Shown here: piece by piece, positions 28,083 to 30,945 of the stretch
How positions within the stretch are numbered: the stretch's first letter is position 1
How the letters are laid out: each line of letters opens with the position of its first letter
Origin: Vibrio alginolyticus NBRC 15630 = ATCC 17749
Lineage (GTDB): Bacteria; Pseudomonadota; Gammaproteobacteria; Enterobacterales; Vibrionaceae
NCBI RefSeq assembly: GCF_000354175.2
Contig: NC_022359.1
Span: forward strand, 1,710,001 to 1,742,000
Length of the DNA stretch: 32,000 nt
Direction of reading: 5' to 3'
The notes under the pieces: model-generated
What the model saw: only the letters and a program-made list of their open reading frames with translations
Told to the model about the DNA's origin: nothing
Database searches by the model: none
Program-made: the position numbers and the translations under genes

Positions 28083-29840
28083 TTAATCCGCTGACCACAC
28101 CGAGCGAATATCTGGCCAACCCCAGTTAGTTAAAGCGACGTCTTCTAACACACCTTGGAAGCGCAAAGTTTGTGTATGGTGGAACATAGGTGCAATCCAA
28201 TACTCGCTGATCAACGTCGATGCAATTGGCTCCAATGCATTAAGGTACTCCTCAAGTGGAACGAAAGATCTGACTCTCTGTAGTTGTTCATCTAACCATT
28301 GTGCGTTCTTTTCTCCCAAAGTGTGGAATAGCACAGCGTTGCTGAAGAAGTTCGTGAACGCTGAGGCATGACGATTATCATCTAGGTTTATGTTCGTTAC
28401 GACCATTGTCTCATTTAGCTCACCGTTCTTAGCCTTCTCGTTCAGCTCACGGTAGGAATACATAACAATTTCTACTTTACTGCCAACACTCGCCAAACGA
28501 TTAGAAATAGCCCGCGCACAGCGACGCAATGCGGTATAGTTATATCCTGCTATCGTAATGTGTTTAGGTAACTTAAGCGGCTCACTGAACGGACGGAGCA
28601 CTGGCTTCCAACCTGGTAGCAGGTTATAAGCGGGTATACTCCCAAACACAATATTCTCGCGGCGCATCACTTCGGCCAAGTGCTCAGGTTGAATTAGCTC
28701 ACTAATATAACGGCGCTGCGCTAAAGAGAGTTTGTGCTTAGCGTGCTGATTAAATAAGGTGAATAAGCAACCATCTTCTATTCGGCTACGCTTGCTCGCC
28801 GATGAGTTTTCTCGGTTTTGCGTCGACATATAGTGTCCACACAAATCCTCCTCGGGCGAAGCATCCCTTTGCAACGTATTTGCTGCCAATGACGGGTTCT
28901 CCATTTGCTCGTCATTAACAATCCAGATAGTCACCAAATCCGTTAGAACTCTACATGCGTAGTAACCATTAAATGCTTGCAGTTTTAAACGACTTTCATT
29001 GTGCTCGACAACAGAGAATGGGCCACTTCCGACCACCAGCTTGTTATTCGCTACGTTAACTTGGCTTACTGGTTGAATGCCGTATTTCACCCCAGAAATA
29101 AGTCCAGCAAAGCCCAAGTCAGCTCGATTAAGCTTAAAAACAACTTTCAATGGCGTTGGCGCAGTGATGTTAGCGACATGTGCCAATTCTTTTTCGTAAT
29201 ACTGTAGTGAACTCAATTTTGCAAACAAGCTAACCACTGTTTCTGCATCAATGGAATTACCATTATGAAAAGTCAGACCTGGACGAAGGTAGAAAGTCCA
29301 TTCGTAGGTGTCTTCGTCATAACGCCAGTGATGTGCGAGTTCTGGTTGCACTTTCCCATTGTGATCACTCGAAACTAAGCAACAATAGATTTGCCTTAAT
29401 AAGAAACGTTCGCTGCTACGCTGAAGTTGATGTGGAACGACGCGCTCAAACATTCGCTTATAGGTTAATTGAATATTGAGCTGTCCTTCTTGAACAGAAG
29501 CACCAGACGTTGTTTTTAACAAACGGCCAAATGCCATTTCGTCTTCATCTAATATCGCCAGTGCTTTTTCATACTTGCCTAACTTGATACGTTCAAGAGC
29601 CAAGCTCTCTTTTAAAACGTCTAACTCCATATTCAGAATAAGAGTCGATCGTTGGTTCCGCCCAGCTTTCGGGTGCCAGCTCAACCACGCCTTCTGCTGC
29701 ATCTGCGTTAGCAGGCTACGAGCATGCCGAGAAGAAGTGAACATGATGTCGGCAATGTCCTGTAACGTGGTTTTTGTTTCATCACCAACGCTAAACGAGA
29801 GTAATCGTTGGTAATAGCGAAACAAATTGAGATCAGACAC
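28083..29840 (-). CDS. SgrR family transcriptional regulator (N-terminal winged HTH + family-5 solute-binding-protein-like domain)
   Basis: 585 aa. N-terminus (LFRYYQRLLS...TTLQDIADIMFTSSRHARSLLTQMQQKAWLSWHPKAGRNQRSTL) is collinear with my memory of E. coli SgrR. GTG start. Confidence 0.85.
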   Translation of the reverse strand: MSDLNLFRYYQRLLSFSVGDETKTTLQDIADIMFTSSRHARSLLTQMQQKAWLSWHPKAGRNQRSTLILNMELDVLKESLALERIKLGKYEKALAILDEDEMAFGRLLKTTSGASVQEGQLNIQLTYKRMFERVVPHQLQRSSERFLLRQIYCCLVSSDHNGKVQPELAHHWRYDEDTYEWTFYLRPGLTFHNGNSIDAETVVSLFAKLSSLQYYEKELAHVANITAPTPLKVVFKLNRADLGFAGLISGVKYGIQPVSQVNVANNKLVVGSGPFSVVEHNESRLKLQAFNGYYACRVLTDLVTIWIVNDEQMENPSLAANTLQRDASPEEDLCGHYMSTQNRENSSASKRSRIEDGCLFTLFNQHAKHKLSLAQRRYISELIQPEHLAEVMRRENIVFGSIPAYNLLPGWKPVLRPFSEPLKLPKHITIAGYNYTALRRCARAISNRLASVGSKVEIVMYSYRELNEKAKNGELNETMVVTNINLDDNRHASAFTNFFSNAVLFHTLGEKNAQWLDEQLQRVRSFVPLEEYLNALEPIASTLISEYWIAPMFHHTQTLRFQGVLEDVALTNWGWPDIRSVWSAD

Positions 29841-30073
29841 TGAATCAACCTTAGATCTGTGAAGTTTGTGGATAGGAATAGTTTACTTAAGTTGGCGGTA
29901 ATAAAATAAGAAAACTTCCTAATTATCTGTTCCCCTTTTCCACAATTAACCTCCAAATTCGGCTTTAAAGCCCCATATATTTACGTTATTAGGAAAAAAG
30001 CCAACAAAAGCACTCTCTTTTTTATATCCCCTTTTATACACATAATTTACTCGTCAGCGTAAAGGAGGAAGAA

Positions 30074-30184
30074 ATGAAGAAGCCAATGATGGCGTACTTT
30101 TTTCAGCAACGCCTAGCTCAATCGAGTAATAAAATAGAAGTGATGACTCTGGTTTATCTTAACGATATGTTCCAGTGGTCATAG
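30074..30184 (+). CDS. 36-codon ORF with a strong SD, divergent from the SgrR-family gene (SgrT-like candidate; not in the ORF track)
   Basis: My own translation: MKKPMMAYFFQQRLAQSSNKIEVMTLVYLNDMFQWS*. SD aaaggagg ends 5 nt before the ATG. A -10-like cataat lies at 30041-30046. Confidence 0.5.
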   Translation: MKKPMMAYFFQQRLAQSSNKIEVMTLVYLNDMFQWS

Positions 30185-30193
30185 CCTAACCTC

Positions 30194-30256
30194 AAGCAGA
30201 ACTTAGCTCCTGATACTACACCCCCACTTCGTTGTATCTTAAGTTCTGCTTTTTCA
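30194..30256 (+). terminator. Long structured hairpin plus T-run closing the small-ORF transcription unit
   Basis: 12-bp outer stem aagcagaactta (30194-30205) / taagttctgctt (30240-30251), inner stem gatac/gtatc, 17-nt C-rich loop, then tttttcatctttt. Confidence 0.6.
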
Positions 30257-30405
30257 TCTTTTGCACTCTACTACCTTATTGCAGGTTACTAAAAGTTAAC
30301 TAGTTGAAACACAGCAAAACAGAGTCTACATTGAAGTCTCATCCCCCAATCGCTTTGTTGAGAAAGGGGCATTCATGGATATACACCACCAATTCGGGAG
30401 TCAAT

Positions 30406-30945
30406 ATGGCAACTTCAGTGAAACTTAAAGCGGGCGACAGCTTCCCTCATCTTCAAGCCACTTTGCTAGATGGTTCAAGCGTAACGTTGGGTCAGCCGCA
30501 AGGTGATGCGACTTGGCAAGCAGTATTCGTTTATCGTGGTAAACACTGCCCTCTTTGTACTAAGTACCTCAACGAGCTTGAGAGTTACAAACAGGCTTTC
30601 GCTGATGCTGGCGTCGATATTCTTGCCGTTTCTGGCGATTCAAAAGCACAGCTAGAGGGGCATCTAGAGAAACTCGAAATCAGCTTCCCTATCGCTTACG
30701 GCCTGACCGAAGAACAAATGAAAACGCTAGGCTTGTATGTATCTATTCCTCGATCTGAACAGGAAACCGATCATAATTTCGCAGAACCAGGTCTGTTTGT
30801 GGTGAATGAACACGGCGACTTACACGTGGTGGATATTTCAAACAACCCGTTTGTTCGCCCTGAGCTTGGCGCGCTATCACGCGGATTGGCATGGATTCGC
30901 GATCCAAACAATAACTACCCTATCCGTGGCACATTGGATTACTAA
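30406..30945 (+). CDS. AhpC/TSA (peroxiredoxin-like / redoxin) family protein
   Basis: Thioredoxin-fold pattern (...AVFVYRGKHCPLCTKYLNEL...ILAVSGDS...). ATG at 30406 behind gggag preferred; the track's TTG start at 30304 adds 34 implausible residues. Confidence 0.75.
   Translation: MATSVKLKAGDSFPHLQATLLDGSSVTLGQPQGDATWQAVFVYRGKHCPLCTKYLNELESYKQAFADAGVDILAVSGDSKAQLEGHLEKLEISFPIAYGLTEEQMKTLGLYVSIPRSEQETDHNFAEPGLFVVNEHGDLHVVDISNNPFVRPELGALSRGLAWIRDPNNNYPIRGTLDY

What the first reader, a model, noticed from the sequence alone, without database searches (positions are those of the whole stretch)
29841..30262. SgrR-family regulator divergently paired with a short-ORF plus structured-RNA unit: an sgrS/sgrT-like dual-function sRNA candidate outside the enterics
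The gene at 28083-29840 (-) is a clear SgrR-family regulator. A 36-codon ORF, missed by the 60-aa track, sits 233 bp from its start on the opposite strand at 30074-30184. Its product is MKKPMMAYFFQQRLAQSSNKIEVMTLVYLNDMFQWS. A near-consensus SD (aaaggagg, 5-nt spacer) precedes it. Upstream is a -10-like cataat (30041-30046) with a poor, T-rich -35, which is the pattern of an activator-dependent promoter.

After the stop comes a 12-bp stem (30194-30205 / 30240-30251). It encloses a 5-bp inner stem and a 17-nt C-rich loop (tacacccccacttcgtt), followed by tttttcatctttt. This implies a roughly 200-nt unit made of a short ORF, an untranslated structured 3' part and an intrinsic terminator.

In enterobacteria sgrR is divergently paired with sgrS, a roughly 230-nt sRNA. 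That sRNA encodes the roughly 40-aa SgrT at its 5' end and a base-pairing seed at its 3' end. To my knowledge sgrS homologues have been described in Enterobacteriaceae and Aeromonas, not in Vibrio-like genomes. From memory (not an alignment), E. coli SgrT has Tyr-Phe at about residues 8-9 and ends ...LMQWE... The peptide here has Y8-F9 and ends ...DMFQWS.

The intergenic region also holds a perfect 12-bp palindrome, GGCTTTAAAGCC (29961-29972). It has two direct copies of TCCCCTTTTnnACAnnTAA (29931-29949 and 30027-30045). The second copy overlaps the predicted promoter, so these are candidate regulator sites.
Basis: partly seen in the sequence, partly recalled or inferred. Interest (0 to 1): 0.7.

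Follow-up and report, generated by a model that had tools for sequence, protein, structure and literature searches.

The report
SgrS/SgrT-like small RNA in Vibrios
Next to an SgrR-type regulator gene, this Vibrio alginolyticus window carries a small gene unit conserved across Vibrionaceae, made of an optional 36-aa peptide and a hairpin RNA whose invariant loop is complementary to the ribosome-binding site of the glucose transporter gene ptsG, so it looks like a diverged and so far unrecognised counterpart of the enterobacterial SgrS/SgrT sugar-stress RNA.

Summary
Comparison of about 45 Vibrionaceae loci shows a real, conserved unit lying divergent from an SgrR-family regulator gene.

- **Promoter.** It matches a profile of enterobacterial sgrS promoters (E=0.008; 0 of 2000 shuffles reach its score).
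- **Small ORF.** It is under purifying selection (pN/pS 0-0.17 in close pairs). Its family aligns colinearly with SgrT (hhalign P=0.002; 0 of 300 column shuffles reach the score).
- **Terminator hairpin.** The stem covaries (107 of 108 cells are canonical pairs across 12 lineages). The loop keeps GCUCCUGA...CCCCCA.

The ORF has been lost repeatedly (V. parahaemolyticus, V. diabolicus, V. alfacsensis, V. scophthalmi) while promoter and hairpin remain. sgrT is patchy within sgrS in the same way.

The invariant UGCUCCUGA is the exact complement of the ptsG Shine-Dalgarno region UCAGGAGCA in V. cholerae and E. coli.

It is not a sequence member of Rfam SgrS or Pfam SgrT, and the seed differs.

No expression data, regulator-dependence data or target data exist.

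The literature I could search names no such RNA, and states that V. cholerae lacks SgrS. I rate it a new variant of a known kind, of high interest.

The parts
28083..29840 (-). SgrR-family transcription regulator (585 aa; N-terminal SgrR_N winged helix plus SBP_bac_5 solute-binding domain)
   Evidence: Pfam SgrR_N 1.6e-31 and SBP_bac_5 8e-27. It is 24% identical to E. coli SgrR (185 bits) and scores 150 bits against YbaE. Orthologues are 57-86% identical across Vibrio.
29903..29939 (+). Regulator-proximal conserved block AAAATAAGAAAACTTCC...CTGTTCCCCTTTT. It is probably the regulator's own promoter and autoregulatory site. GTTCCCCTTTT is the reverse complement of the enteric box AAAAGGGGAAC next to sgrR.
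   Evidence: Conserved in all Vibrio loci, including the Splendidus-clade loci that lack the RNA unit. The enteric promoter HMM (positions 1-11) hits it on the minus strand. The identical 11-mer lies upstream of E. coli sgrR.
29990..30046 (+). Predicted SgrR-type activator-dependent promoter of the small-ORF/RNA unit. It comprises TAGGAAAAAA (29990-29999, about -62), CACTCTC plus a T tract (30011-30023), the TCCCCTTTT box (30027-30035, about -27) and the -10 CATAAT (30041-30046). Predicted start is near 30053.
   Evidence: Promoters from 17 Vibrionaceae loci align without gaps. An nhmmer profile of 38 enteric PsgrS promoters hits window 30005-30049 on the + strand at E=0.008, and 0 of 2000 shuffles reach its score. 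The same profile gives no hit in the E. coli ybaE-cof intergenic region.
30062..30068 (+). Shine-Dalgarno AAGGAGG, 5 nt before the ATG
   Evidence: Read directly from the sequence. A comparable SD is conserved upstream of the ORF in the other species.
30074..30184 (+). Small ORF of 36 aa, MKKPMMAYFFQQRLAQSSNKIEVMTLVYLNDMFQWS. It belongs to a Vibrionaceae peptide family with core MA.YYQQRL..S...E..AL..M.eL..W and is a probable remote SgrT homologue.
   Evidence: Orthologous ORFs are present in 24 loci. pN/pS is 0-0.17 for close pairs and 0.6 or less overall. The exact peptide was seen on 879 V. alginolyticus contigs and is annotated only as 'hypothetical protein'. hhalign against SgrT gives P=0.0019 over 40 colinear columns, and 0 of 300 column shuffles reach the score.
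30185..30193 (+). Short A/C-rich single-stranded linker between the stop codon and the hairpin
   Evidence: Unpaired in the fold of the 3' part alone. Relatives have A/C-rich linkers of variable length here.
30194..30251 (+). Conserved terminator hairpin with a 12-13 bp outer stem. Its internal and apical loops carry the invariant motifs GCTCCTGA (30206-30213) and CCCCCA (30221-30226), the proposed base-pairing seed.
   Evidence: dG -19.5 kcal/mol, z -5.7. The stem covaries: 107 of 108 cells are canonical over 9 pairs in 12 lineages, and 8 of 9 pairs vary. The loop motifs are invariant. Unpaired probability is 0.81-0.99 for CCCCC in all lineages and 1.00 for CUCCU here. Covariance model R1 scores 90.5 bits here.
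30252..30262 (+). T-rich tail (TTTCATCTTTT): the end of the intrinsic terminator and a likely Hfq-binding 3' end
   Evidence: Read directly from the sequence. A U-rich tail follows the hairpin in nearly all lineages.

Best explanation
The region 29990-30262 is a diverged Vibrionaceae counterpart of the enterobacterial sgrS-sgrT gene.

**Proposed mechanism.** The adjacent SgrR-family regulator binds GGAA/TCCCC-type boxes at about -62 and -27. It then activates a promoter with a weak -35, giving a + strand transcript of roughly 205 nt (about 30053 to 30256-30262).
- The 5' half of the transcript is translated into a 36-aa peptide distantly related to SgrT.
- The 3' half is a Rho-independent terminator hairpin. 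Its exposed loops (GCUCCUGA and CCCCCA) base-pair with the translation-initiation regions of target mRNAs.
- The best candidate target is ptsG. Its Shine-Dalgarno region UCAGGAGCA and an upstream GGGGG are exact complements of the two motifs. Pairing would block ribosome binding.
- The RNA module is the indispensable core and the ORF is an accessory.

**Shown here:**
- sequence features;
- conservation;
- stem covariation;
- purifying selection on the ORF;
- promoter and peptide similarity to the sgrS/sgrT system;
- complementarity to V. cholerae and E. coli ptsG.

**Inferred only:**
- that the transcript exists and where it ends;
- activation by the regulator;
- Hfq dependence;
- actual pairing and its effect;
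- the peptide's function;
- the inducing signal.
For: **1. Linkage.** The motif GCTCCTG-N(0-25)-CCCCCA occurs once per locus, always upstream of and divergent from the regulator. Downstream genes differ between species (redoxin, ArsR/ACR3, HAD hydrolase, genes on the other strand).

**2. Structured RNA.** Across 12 lineages, 107 of 108 stem cells are canonical pairs and 8 of 9 pairs vary. Arms taken from different species pair at only 58%. The loop motifs are invariant and predicted to be unpaired.

**3. The RNA is independent of the ORF.** Promoter and hairpin persist where the ORF is deleted (V. diabolicus L005, V. parahaemolyticus L020, V. alfacsensis L025, V. scophthalmi L027, L035, L036). 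They also persist where it carries stop codons (L019). Enteric sgrS loci without sgrT behave the same way (PMC2760817).

**4. The ORF is coding.** pN/pS is 0 for three jasicida/owensii-type sequences (2-3 synonymous, 0 non-synonymous changes). It is 0.11-0.17 for rotiferianus/AND4, YIC-376/natriegens and cholerae/vulnificus.

**5. PsgrS-like promoter.** The nhmmer profile of enteric sgrS promoters hits the predicted promoter on the correct strand. The hits are L097 (4e-5), L034 (1.5e-3), L039 (3.4e-3) and the window (8e-3, with 0 of 2000 shuffles reaching the score). It does not hit E. coli ybaE-cof.

**6. Peptide resembles SgrT.** hhalign gives 40 colinear columns at P=0.0019. No column shuffle of 300 reaches the score (null 9.0 +/- 2.0, observed 19.2).

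**7. Target.** UGCUCCUGA is a perfect 9-bp complement of UCAGGAGCA, which lies 6 nt before the V. cholerae ptsG AUG and is also present in E. coli ptsG. CCCCC complements GGGGG at about -50. The order of the two sites is consistent with antiparallel pairing.
- In 263 kb of Vibrionaceae DNA, ptsG is the only gene with TCAGGAGC at an SD position.

**8. Precedent.** VcdR of V. cholerae represses ptsG, nagE, treB and ptsHI through four consecutive cytosines in its 3' part (PMC8672173).
Against: - No transcript, 5' or 3' end, regulator-dependence or target data exist for this locus.
- Rfam SgrS does not match even at E<=10. The SgrS seed CUGAGUAuUGGUG is absent.
- Pfam SgrT hits none of 9 family peptides at E<=10. 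The hhalign probability is only 14%.
- By duplex energy, the ptsG translation-initiation region is not exceptional: 20 of 199 background regions score as well. A C-rich, anti-SD seed pairs with many strong SDs.
- CUCCU is partly paired in several lineages (unpaired probability 0.22-0.64).
- The ptsG leader could be checked only in V. cholerae and E. coli, not in V. alginolyticus.
- The regulator is about equally distant from E. coli SgrR and YbaE (185 versus 150 bits).
- Splendidus-clade vibrios and V. tubiashii keep the regulator without the unit. Aliivibrio-type loci keep the ORF without the RNA motif.
- A preprint reports that V. cholerae copes poorly with sugar-phosphate stress (PMC13060122).
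Confidence: 0.6

Rival explanations
1. This is an ordinary small-protein gene with its own intrinsic terminator. The transcript is only an mRNA. The conserved hairpin loop reflects terminator or mRNA-stability constraints, not trans-acting base pairing.
For: - The ORF is under purifying selection and has a strong SD.
- Aliivibrio-type loci keep the ORF without the RNA motif.
- No known RNA family matches.
- By duplex energy, ptsG is not an outlier.
Against: - At least seven loci have lost or disrupted the ORF but keep the promoter and hairpin.
- Terminator loops are normally free to vary. Here the stem varies and the loop is invariant.
- The loop is complementary to the ptsG SD.
Confidence: 0.15
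2. The conserved loop acts in cis or binds a protein. One possibility is an anti-Shine-Dalgarno element that folds back on the ORF's own AAGGAGG to gate peptide translation. Another is a decoy or sponge for an RNA-binding protein or another sRNA. In either case it is not an mRNA-targeting seed.
For: - CUCCU is complementary to any AGGAG SD, including the ORF's own.
- E. coli SgrS has a 5' structure that limits sgrT translation (PMC2760817).
- The full-length fold is only modestly more stable than shuffles (z -2.5).
Against: - The motif is retained unchanged in lineages with no ORF to regulate.
- The 8-9 nt match extends beyond the generic AGGAG core to the ptsG-specific flanks (UC...CA).
- The full-length MFE fold does not pair the loop with the ORF's SD.
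Confidence: 0.12
3. This is a 5' leader or attenuator of the downstream gene. Here that is the AhpC/redoxin gene at 30406-30945, so the ORF would be a leader peptide and the hairpin a regulated terminator.
For: - The unit lies upstream of the redoxin gene on the same strand in the window and in some Harveyi-clade loci.
- A weak Rfam Phe_leader hit overlaps 30002-30105 (18 bits against a cut-off of 55; E 2.5).
Against: - The downstream gene differs between species or lies on the opposite strand: ArsR/ACR3, HAD hydrolase, CMD, VTT, RsgA.
- No alternative antiterminator structure is conserved.
- A separate promoter-like site, TTGAAA-17-TACATT, lies at 30304-30332 between the hairpin and the redoxin gene.
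- The peptide has no run of regulatory codons.
Confidence: 0.03

Closest known systems
SgrS/SgrT with SgrR of Escherichia coli and other Enterobacteriaceae (Rfam RF00534; Pfam PF15894)
   Same: - It is transcribed divergently from an SgrR-family regulator gene.
- Its promoter has the same geometry (GGAA box about -62, T tract about -36, TYCC box about -27, AT-rich -10) and matches the enteric PsgrS profile.
- The small ORF is in the 5' half, and the base-pairing part and intrinsic terminator are in the 3' half.
- The ORF is patchily lost while the RNA part is kept.
- The peptide is colinearly similar to SgrT.
- The RNA is complementary to the SD region of ptsG. It overlaps the last 4 nt (UCAG) of the E. 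coli SgrS target site CACCCAUACUCAG, as read.
   Different: - There is no covariance-model match, and the 13-nt SgrS seed is absent.
- The proposed seed (GCUCCUGA...CCCCCA) sits inside the loops of the terminator hairpin, not in a single-stranded stretch before it.
- The peptide does not reach the Pfam SgrT threshold.
- The intergenic region is about 230 bp rather than 67 bp, and holds an extra inverted box.
- There is no setA downstream.
- The regulator is only 24% identical to E. coli SgrR.
Aeromonas and Photorhabdus SgrS homologues (Horler and Vanderpool 2009, PMC2760817)
   Same: - They are divergent outliers, accepted as SgrS homologues on synteny with an SgrR homologue plus at least three of four criteria: an orphan promoter, an SgrT-like ORF, ptsG complementarity and a terminator.
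- Their seed deviates from the consensus and their SgrT identity is very low. The Vibrionaceae unit meets the same kind of criteria.
   Different: Their sequences could not be obtained here, so no direct comparison was made. Vibrionaceae were not among the 22 homologues of that study.
VcdRP (Vcr082) of Vibrio cholerae, a dual-function RNA (PMC8672173)
   Same: - It is a Vibrio dual-function RNA with a small ORF upstream and a 3' base-pairing site made of consecutive cytosines.
- That site represses ptsG and other PTS mRNAs.
- It ends in a Rho-independent terminator.
   Different: - It is a different locus (between vc2278 and vc2279, not next to an SgrR-family gene).
- The transcript is 306 nt.
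- The peptide, VcdP, is 29 aa and unrelated, and binds citrate synthase.
- It is repressed by CRP.
- Its ORF and seed are conserved together in all species tested, unlike here.
DsvR (VCA0578), the SgrR-like regulator of V. cholerae (bioRxiv 2026, PMC13060122)
   Same: - It is an SgrR-family regulator in a Vibrio with the same domain architecture.
- It is proposed to bind an 11-bp box shared by its own upstream region and its target promoters.
   Different: - It is probably a paralogue, not the orthologue.
- The V. cholerae protein closest to the window's regulator (P0048, 57% identity) lies on ~3.0-Mb contigs, the size of chromosome 1. It sits next to a trypsin-like protease gene, whereas vca0578 is on chromosome 2.
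- The preprint states that V. cholerae lacks SgrS upstream of dsvR. The unit described here sits upstream of the other paralogue.

Membership tests
SgrS RNA (Rfam RF00534) | Match to the SgrS covariance model | tested here: not met
   There is no hit in the window at the gathering score or at E<=10. There is none in nine Vibrionaceae homologous loci. The positive control, E. coli sgrS, scores 228.8 bits in the same run.
SgrS RNA (Rfam RF00534) | Nearly invariant 13-nt base-pairing region CUGAGUAuUGGUG near the 3' end (PMC2760817) | tested here: not met
   A search allowing up to 2 substitutions finds it in the enteric metagenome loci but in none of the metagenome Vibrionaceae-type loci scanned. 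It is also absent from the window's sequence as read. The Vibrionaceae RNA instead keeps GCUCCUGA...CCCCCA.
SgrS RNA (Rfam RF00534) | Transcribed divergently from an sgrR-family gene, from an SgrR-type promoter | tested here: met
   The regulator has SgrR_N plus SBP_bac_5. The enteric PsgrS profile hits window 30005-30049 at E=0.008, and 0 of 2000 shuffles reach the score. Actual dependence on the regulator cannot be tested here.
SgrS RNA (Rfam RF00534) | Complementarity to the translation-initiation region of the cognate ptsG mRNA | tested here: met
   For V. cholerae, UGCUCCUGA pairs with UCAGGAGCA 6 nt upstream of the AUG, and CCCCC pairs with GGGGG at about -50. E. coli ptsG has the same SD. 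The ptsG leader of the window's own species could not be fetched.
SgrS RNA (Rfam RF00534) | Inverted repeat followed by a T run (intrinsic terminator) at the 3' end | tested here: met
   The 12-13 bp stem, at -19.5 kcal/mol, is followed by TTTTTCATCTTTT and is conserved with covariation. The simple scanner misses it because it only accepts loops of 3-8 nt.
SgrS RNA (Rfam RF00534) | Induced by sugar-phosphate stress, Hfq-dependent, represses ptsG | not testable with these tools
   This needs experiments.
SgrT peptide (Pfam PF15894) | Match to the SgrT profile HMM | tested here: not met
   E. coli SgrT scores 3.3e-13. None of 9 Vibrionaceae peptides is reported at E<=10.
SgrT peptide (Pfam PF15894) | Family-level (profile-profile) similarity to SgrT | tested here: inconclusive
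   hhalign of 20 Vibrionaceae peptides against 14 diverse SgrT sequences gives 40 colinear columns, P=0.0019 and probability 14%. No column shuffle of 300 reaches the score. This suggests remote homology but does not prove it.
SgrT peptide (Pfam PF15894) | Encoded in the 5' part of the transcript that is divergent from the SgrR-family gene | tested here: met
   The position is the same in 24 loci.
SgrT peptide (Pfam PF15894) | Inhibits the PtsG transporter | not testable with these tools
   This needs experiments.
SgrR regulator family | N-terminal SgrR_N DNA-binding domain plus C-terminal SBP_bac_5 domain | tested here: met
   Pfam 1.6e-31 and 8e-27.
SgrR regulator family | Orthology to E. 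coli SgrR rather than to the paralogue YbaE | tested here: inconclusive
   BLASTP gives 185 bits (24% identity) to SgrR and 150 bits (25%) to YbaE. No phylogeny was made.
VcdRP dual-function RNA | Locus between the vc2278 and vc2279 homologues, with a 29-aa VcdP | tested here: not met
   This is a different locus, and the peptide is unrelated at 36-60 aa.

The most novel reading that the evidence does not exclude
Vibrionaceae, including V. cholerae, V. vulnificus, V. parahaemolyticus and V. alginolyticus, possess a true evolutionary descendant of the SgrR-SgrS-SgrT system that has gone unrecognised. There are two likely reasons:
- the RNA replaced its seed with an anti-ptsG-SD motif carried in the loops of its own terminator hairpin;
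- in V. cholerae the unit sits next to a different SgrR paralogue (on chromosome 1) than the one studied as DsvR.

The RNA represses ptsG and other PTS mRNAs, and the peptide acts like SgrT on the transporter.
Probability: 0.4. Interest if true: 0.85.

Novelty: new variant of a known kind. Interest (0 to 1): 0.75.

Why it matters
**Current view.** SgrS/SgrT is the textbook dual-function RNA. Its known range is Enterobacteriaceae plus Aeromonas (PMC2760817). A 2026 preprint states that V. cholerae lacks SgrS and may lack any equivalent (PMC13060122).

**What would change.** If this unit is functional, a whole family of important pathogens has an SgrR-linked RNA/peptide module.
- It is an evolutionary series in which regulator, promoter and peptide are kept while the seed is replaced. 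The ORF is lost again and again. In Aliivibrio the RNA is lost while the ORF stays.
- That makes the interplay of coding and base-pairing functions, and seed turnover in sRNAs, directly testable using natural variants.

**Further consequences.**
- It would add a third RNA regulator of ptsG in V. cholerae, next to TarA and VcdR.
- It gives a candidate regulon output for an uncharacterised SgrR paralogue.
- A seed located in the loops of a terminator hairpin is unusual for Hfq-type sRNAs.

Tried and rejected
1. **Equating the regulator with DsvR (VCA0578).** Rejected. The closest V. cholerae homologue lies on ~3.0-Mb contigs (chromosome-1 size) next to a trypsin-like protease.
   - Numbering it VC1648 and the ORF VC1647 is my inference from neighbouring genes. 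It is not verified.
2. **VcdRP as the identity.** Rejected: it is a different locus and peptide.
3. **Shallow SgrT comparison.** With E. coli-type sequences only, hhalign aligned just the C-terminal 11 columns (P=0.037). It was superseded by deeper alignments built from metagenome loci.
4. **PWM of Vibrionaceae promoters scanned on the E. coli sgrR-sgrS locus.** The sgrS promoter ranked second of about 5000 positions, but with p about 0.04 locally and not significant over 2.6 kb. The reverse test with nhmmer was clearer.
5. **Duplex-energy screens against neighbouring genes of V. parahaemolyticus.** These were uninformative, because duplexfold allows unrealistically large interior loops.
6. 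**Covariance model R1, built from Harveyi-clade hairpins.** It is too narrow.
   - It gives only weak hits for V. vulnificus, V. scophthalmi, L034 and L041, and misses V. cholerae and Photobacterium.
   - I therefore counted covariation on a hand-registered stem table in Python, not with the count of structure pairs.
7. **Literature and supplement searches.** I looked for an existing name using vca0578, vc1647/48, Vcr tables and the V. parahaemolyticus 2026 transcriptome map.
   - No paper names this RNA.
8. **The 12-bp palindrome GGCTTTAAAGCC as an operator.** Rejected, because it is not conserved.
9. **The 36-aa query was too short for the search for homologous proteins.** The representative search found only 5 relatives, all Vibrio-type.
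Full report
**1. Observation**

The window comes from Vibrio alginolyticus chromosome 2. An identical regulator is found in CP014044.1, and the exact peptide is annotated 'hypothetical protein [Vibrio alginolyticus]'.
- The gene at 28083-29840(-) hits Pfam SgrR_N (1.6e-31) and SBP_bac_5 (8e-27).
- The 36-codon ORF lies at 30074-30184, with AAGGAGG five nucleotides upstream.
- CATAAT is at 30041-30046.
- The perfect 12-bp inverted repeat is 30194-30205/30240-30251, with an inner 5-bp stem, a C-rich loop and a T-rich tail.
- The direct repeat TCCCCTTTT..ACA..TAA and the palindrome GGCTTTAAAGCC are both present.

The 3' hairpin folds at -19.5 kcal/mol (z -5.7; 0 of 200 shuffles fold as well). No Rfam family matches, even at E<=10.

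**2. The unit is conserved across Vibrionaceae and travels with the regulator**

I collected loci encoding relatives of the regulator from three sources:
- species genomes;
- exact-protein look-ups;
- metagenomes.

In Harveyi/Alginolyticus-clade species the ~60-nt hairpin is almost invariant, while the regulator protein drops to 74-86% identity.

V. natriegens, V. cholerae, V. vulnificus, V. scophthalmi, V. cincinnatiensis, a Photobacterium and several metagenome lineages have a hairpin at the same place. Its outer-stem sequence is completely different, but its loop keeps GCUCCU(G/A)(A) followed 0-20 nt later by CCCCCA.

I registered nine stem pairs in 12 lineages.
- 107 of 108 cells are canonical pairs.
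- Eight of the nine pairs vary, each showing at least three pair types.
- Arms taken from different species pair at only 58%.

The motif GCTCCTG-N(0-25)-CCCCCA occurs once in the window, against 0.02 expected. It occurs exactly once per locus in 25 loci, always divergent-upstream of the regulator.

Downstream neighbours differ between species: redoxin, ArsR/ACR3, HAD hydrolase, or genes on the other strand. The element therefore belongs to the regulator, not to the downstream gene.

CCCCC is predicted unpaired (0.81-0.99) in every lineage. CUCCU is fully unpaired in the window's clade and partly paired elsewhere.

**3. The ORF is a real but dispensable gene**

Homologous ORFs lie between promoter and hairpin in 24 loci. 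The core is MA.YYQQRL..S...E..AL..M.eL..W and lengths run from 32 to 68 aa.

Substitutions are mainly synonymous.
- Three jasicida/owensii-type sequences differ by 2-3 synonymous and 0 non-synonymous changes in the core.
- pN/pS is 0.11 for rotiferianus versus AND4.
- It is 0.12 for YIC-376 versus natriegens.
- It is 0.16 for cholerae versus vulnificus.
- It is 0.6 or less for all pairs.

Yet the ORF is often missing.
- It is cleanly deleted in V. diabolicus and V. parahaemolyticus.
- It carries stop codons in Vibrio sp. ES.051.
- It is absent in V. alfacsensis, V. scophthalmi, L035 and L036.

All of these keep the promoter and hairpin. Conversely, Aliivibrio-type loci keep the ORF, followed directly by a VOC/glyoxalase-like gene, and lack the RNA motif. 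Splendidus-clade vibrios and V. tubiashii keep only the regulator.

The RNA module and the ORF are therefore separable. Within Vibrio the RNA module is the more persistent part. Horler and Vanderpool described the same pattern for sgrS and sgrT. I also saw it in enteric metagenome loci that have an SgrS seed and setA but no SgrT.

**4. The promoter is of the sgrS type**

Seventeen Vibrionaceae promoters align without gaps. The alignment runs RGGAAYAAA (about -62), CTCTCTTTTT (about -42 to -31), a TYCC box (about -27) and CATAMT (-10).

E. coli PsgrS has an annotated +1 at 77367. It shows GGGGAAC, a T tract, TTCCC and AATAAT in the same register.

A PWM built from the Vibrio side gave only weak support. 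The reverse test was clear.
- An nhmmer profile built from 38 distinct enteric sgrS promoters hits the Vibrionaceae intergenic regions on the correct strand at the predicted promoter.
- The hits are L097 at 4e-5 over the full length, L034 at 1.5e-3, L039 at 3.4e-3 and the window at 8e-3 (window 30005-30049).
- None of 2000 Markov shuffles of the window's intergenic region reaches the observed score.
- The profile finds nothing in the intergenic region of the E. coli paralogue pair ybaE-cof.

The second conserved box, TTGTTCCCCTTTT at 29927-29939, is the reverse complement of the AAAAGGGGAAC box that abuts sgrR in enterics. It is retained even where the RNA unit is gone. It is probably the regulator's own promoter or autoregulatory site.

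The 12-bp palindrome is not conserved.

**5. Relation of the peptide to SgrT**

Pfam SgrT recognises E. coli SgrT (3.3e-13) but none of nine family peptides. With only E. coli-type SgrT sequences, hhalign aligned just the C-terminal L..L..LMQW motif (P=0.037).

The metagenome loci supplied 14 diverse SgrT sequences of Salmonella-, Klebsiella- and Serratia-like types, and more Vibrionaceae peptides. With these, hhalign aligns 40 colinear columns:
- MA.YYQQRL..S with RQFYQ.YFTAT;
- a central W/L-E element;
- AL..M.eL..W with L.mL..LMQW.

This gives P=0.0019 and probability 14%. None of 300 column-shuffled SgrT alignments reaches the score (null 9.0 +/- 2.0, maximum 17.9, observed 19.2). I read this as probable remote homology, not as proof.

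**6. Candidate target**

The E. coli ptsG leader reads ...CACCCAUACUCAGGAGCACUCUCAAUUAUG. I obtained the V. cholerae ptsG locus through an IMG/VR hit and the last protein look-ups. It reads ...GGCUACGGGGGUAUGCCG...AACUUAAUCAGGAGCAUAAACAUG.

The invariant UGCUCCUGA is a perfect 9-bp complement of UCAGGAGCA, which lies six nucleotides before the AUG in V. cholerae and is also the SD region of E. coli ptsG. CCCCC complements the GGGGG at about -50. The order of the two sites fits antiparallel pairing.

In 263 kb of Vibrionaceae DNA the 8-mer TCAGGAGC occurs 29 times.
- Twenty-one are the antisense strand of the RNA gene itself.
- Seven lie inside coding regions.
- One lies at a Shine-Dalgarno position, and that one is ptsG.

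The site overlaps the 3' end of the E. coli SgrS target CACCCAUACUCAG.

Caveats:
- By duplex energy, ptsG is not an outlier (20 of 199 background regions score as well).
- I could not fetch the ptsG leader of V. alginolyticus.
- VcdR of V. cholerae already shows that a run of cytosines in the 3' part of a dual-function RNA can repress ptsG, nagE, treB and ptsHI. That makes the mechanism plausible and also warns about low specificity.

**7. What it is not, and what is known**

- It is not VcdRP, which lies between vc2278 and vc2279 and encodes a 29-aa peptide.
- It is probably not linked to DsvR/VCA0578. The closest V. cholerae homologue of the window's regulator (P0048, 57% identity) lies on ~3.0-Mb contigs next to a trypsin-like protease and an 815-aa protein.
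- Its small ORF is UniProt Q9KRJ4, annotated as hypothetical. From the neighbouring genes I infer VC1648 and VC1647, but could not verify this.
- The DsvR preprint says V. cholerae lacks SgrS upstream of dsvR. That is compatible with my result if the unit belongs to the other paralogue.
- A gene labelled VC1647 is listed among bicyclomycin-upregulated transcripts in V. cholerae. This is weak evidence of transcription if my numbering is right.
- No searchable paper mentions vc1647 or vc1648, or links an SgrR-family gene to a Vibrio sRNA.
- All family peptides are annotated only as hypothetical proteins.
- The regulator is about equidistant from E. coli SgrR (185 bits) and YbaE (150 bits).

**8. 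Verdict**

This is a Vibrionaceae-wide unit, linked to an SgrR-family regulator, that works on paper like sgrS/sgrT and probably shares ancestry with it in regulator, promoter and peptide. Its base-pairing module is different.

It fails the sequence-membership tests for Rfam SgrS and Pfam SgrT, so I file it as a new variant of a known kind.

Confidence in the overall mechanism is 0.6. It covers three claims: a regulator-activated dual-function RNA, a loop seed that pairs with ptsG-type translation-initiation regions, and an accessory SgrT-like peptide. Transcription, regulation and targets remain untested.

Noticed in passing
None of the related Vibrio intergenic regions has it.
   Followed up: yes
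window 30217-30231 and 30382-30396: The loop sequence TACACCCCCACTTCG recurs in the same orientation as TACACCACCAATTCG (87% identical), about 10 nt upstream of the redoxin start at 30406 (D4). A similar ACCACCAA(A/T)TCGGGAG is seen upstream of the redoxin gene in L007, L008 and L010. Its meaning is unknown.
   Followed up: no
L020 4691-6758 (V. parahaemolyticus): Here the regulator is followed by a PTS operon of the mannitol family type (EIIA_2, then EIIC+EIIB) and a zinc alcohol dehydrogenase. This hints at a link between the regulator and PTS sugar metabolism. It is absent from the window, where a LysR gene and an aldo-keto reductase follow.
   Followed up: partly
L029, L038, L039, L110 (Aliivibrio-type loci): The small ORF (about 60 aa, with a longer acidic C-terminus) is kept and is followed immediately by a VOC/glyoxalase-like ORF (MKIEHIAIW...). 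There is no GCUCCUGA/CCCCCA hairpin. Here the ORF survives without the RNA module.
   Followed up: partly
L014-L018 (Splendidus clade), L026 (V. tubiashii): The regulator orthologue (59-74% identity in L014-L018) and its proximal boxes are retained, but the whole ORF/RNA unit is missing. In L014-L018 a convergent ABC-ATPase-like gene and its terminator take its place.
   Followed up: partly
L114-L140 (IMG/VR contigs): Thirty viral/prophage contigs carry ptsG, and most of them, including one from V. cholerae (L140), begin or end exactly at its start codon. This suggests prophage regions bounded by ptsG in several enteric species and V. cholerae, or a systematic trimming artefact at that gene.
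   Followed up: no
L113 3814-3912 (E. coli ybaE-cof intergenic): By eye, the paralogous SgrR-family gene ybaE also has GGAAC ... TTCC boxes about 31 nt apart, upstream of the divergent HAD-phosphatase gene cof. The PsgrS profile does not hit it. In V. cholerae a HAD hydrolase gene follows the small ORF/RNA unit.
   Followed up: partly
window 30304-30945: The longest ORF for the redoxin gene starts at a TTG at 30304 (213 aa). Gene callers and the Pfam match support the 179-aa product starting at the ATG at 30406. A sigma-70-like site TTGAAA-17-TACATT at 30304-30332 may be that gene's own promoter.
   Followed up: partly
L037 (metagenome), about 340-400 nt upstream of the regulator: One lineage has the two loop motifs in the reverse order (CAUCCCCAAUGGCUCCAAG), inside a hairpin with a U tail that follows a family ORF. 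This may be a rearranged seed or a chance resemblance.
   Followed up: no
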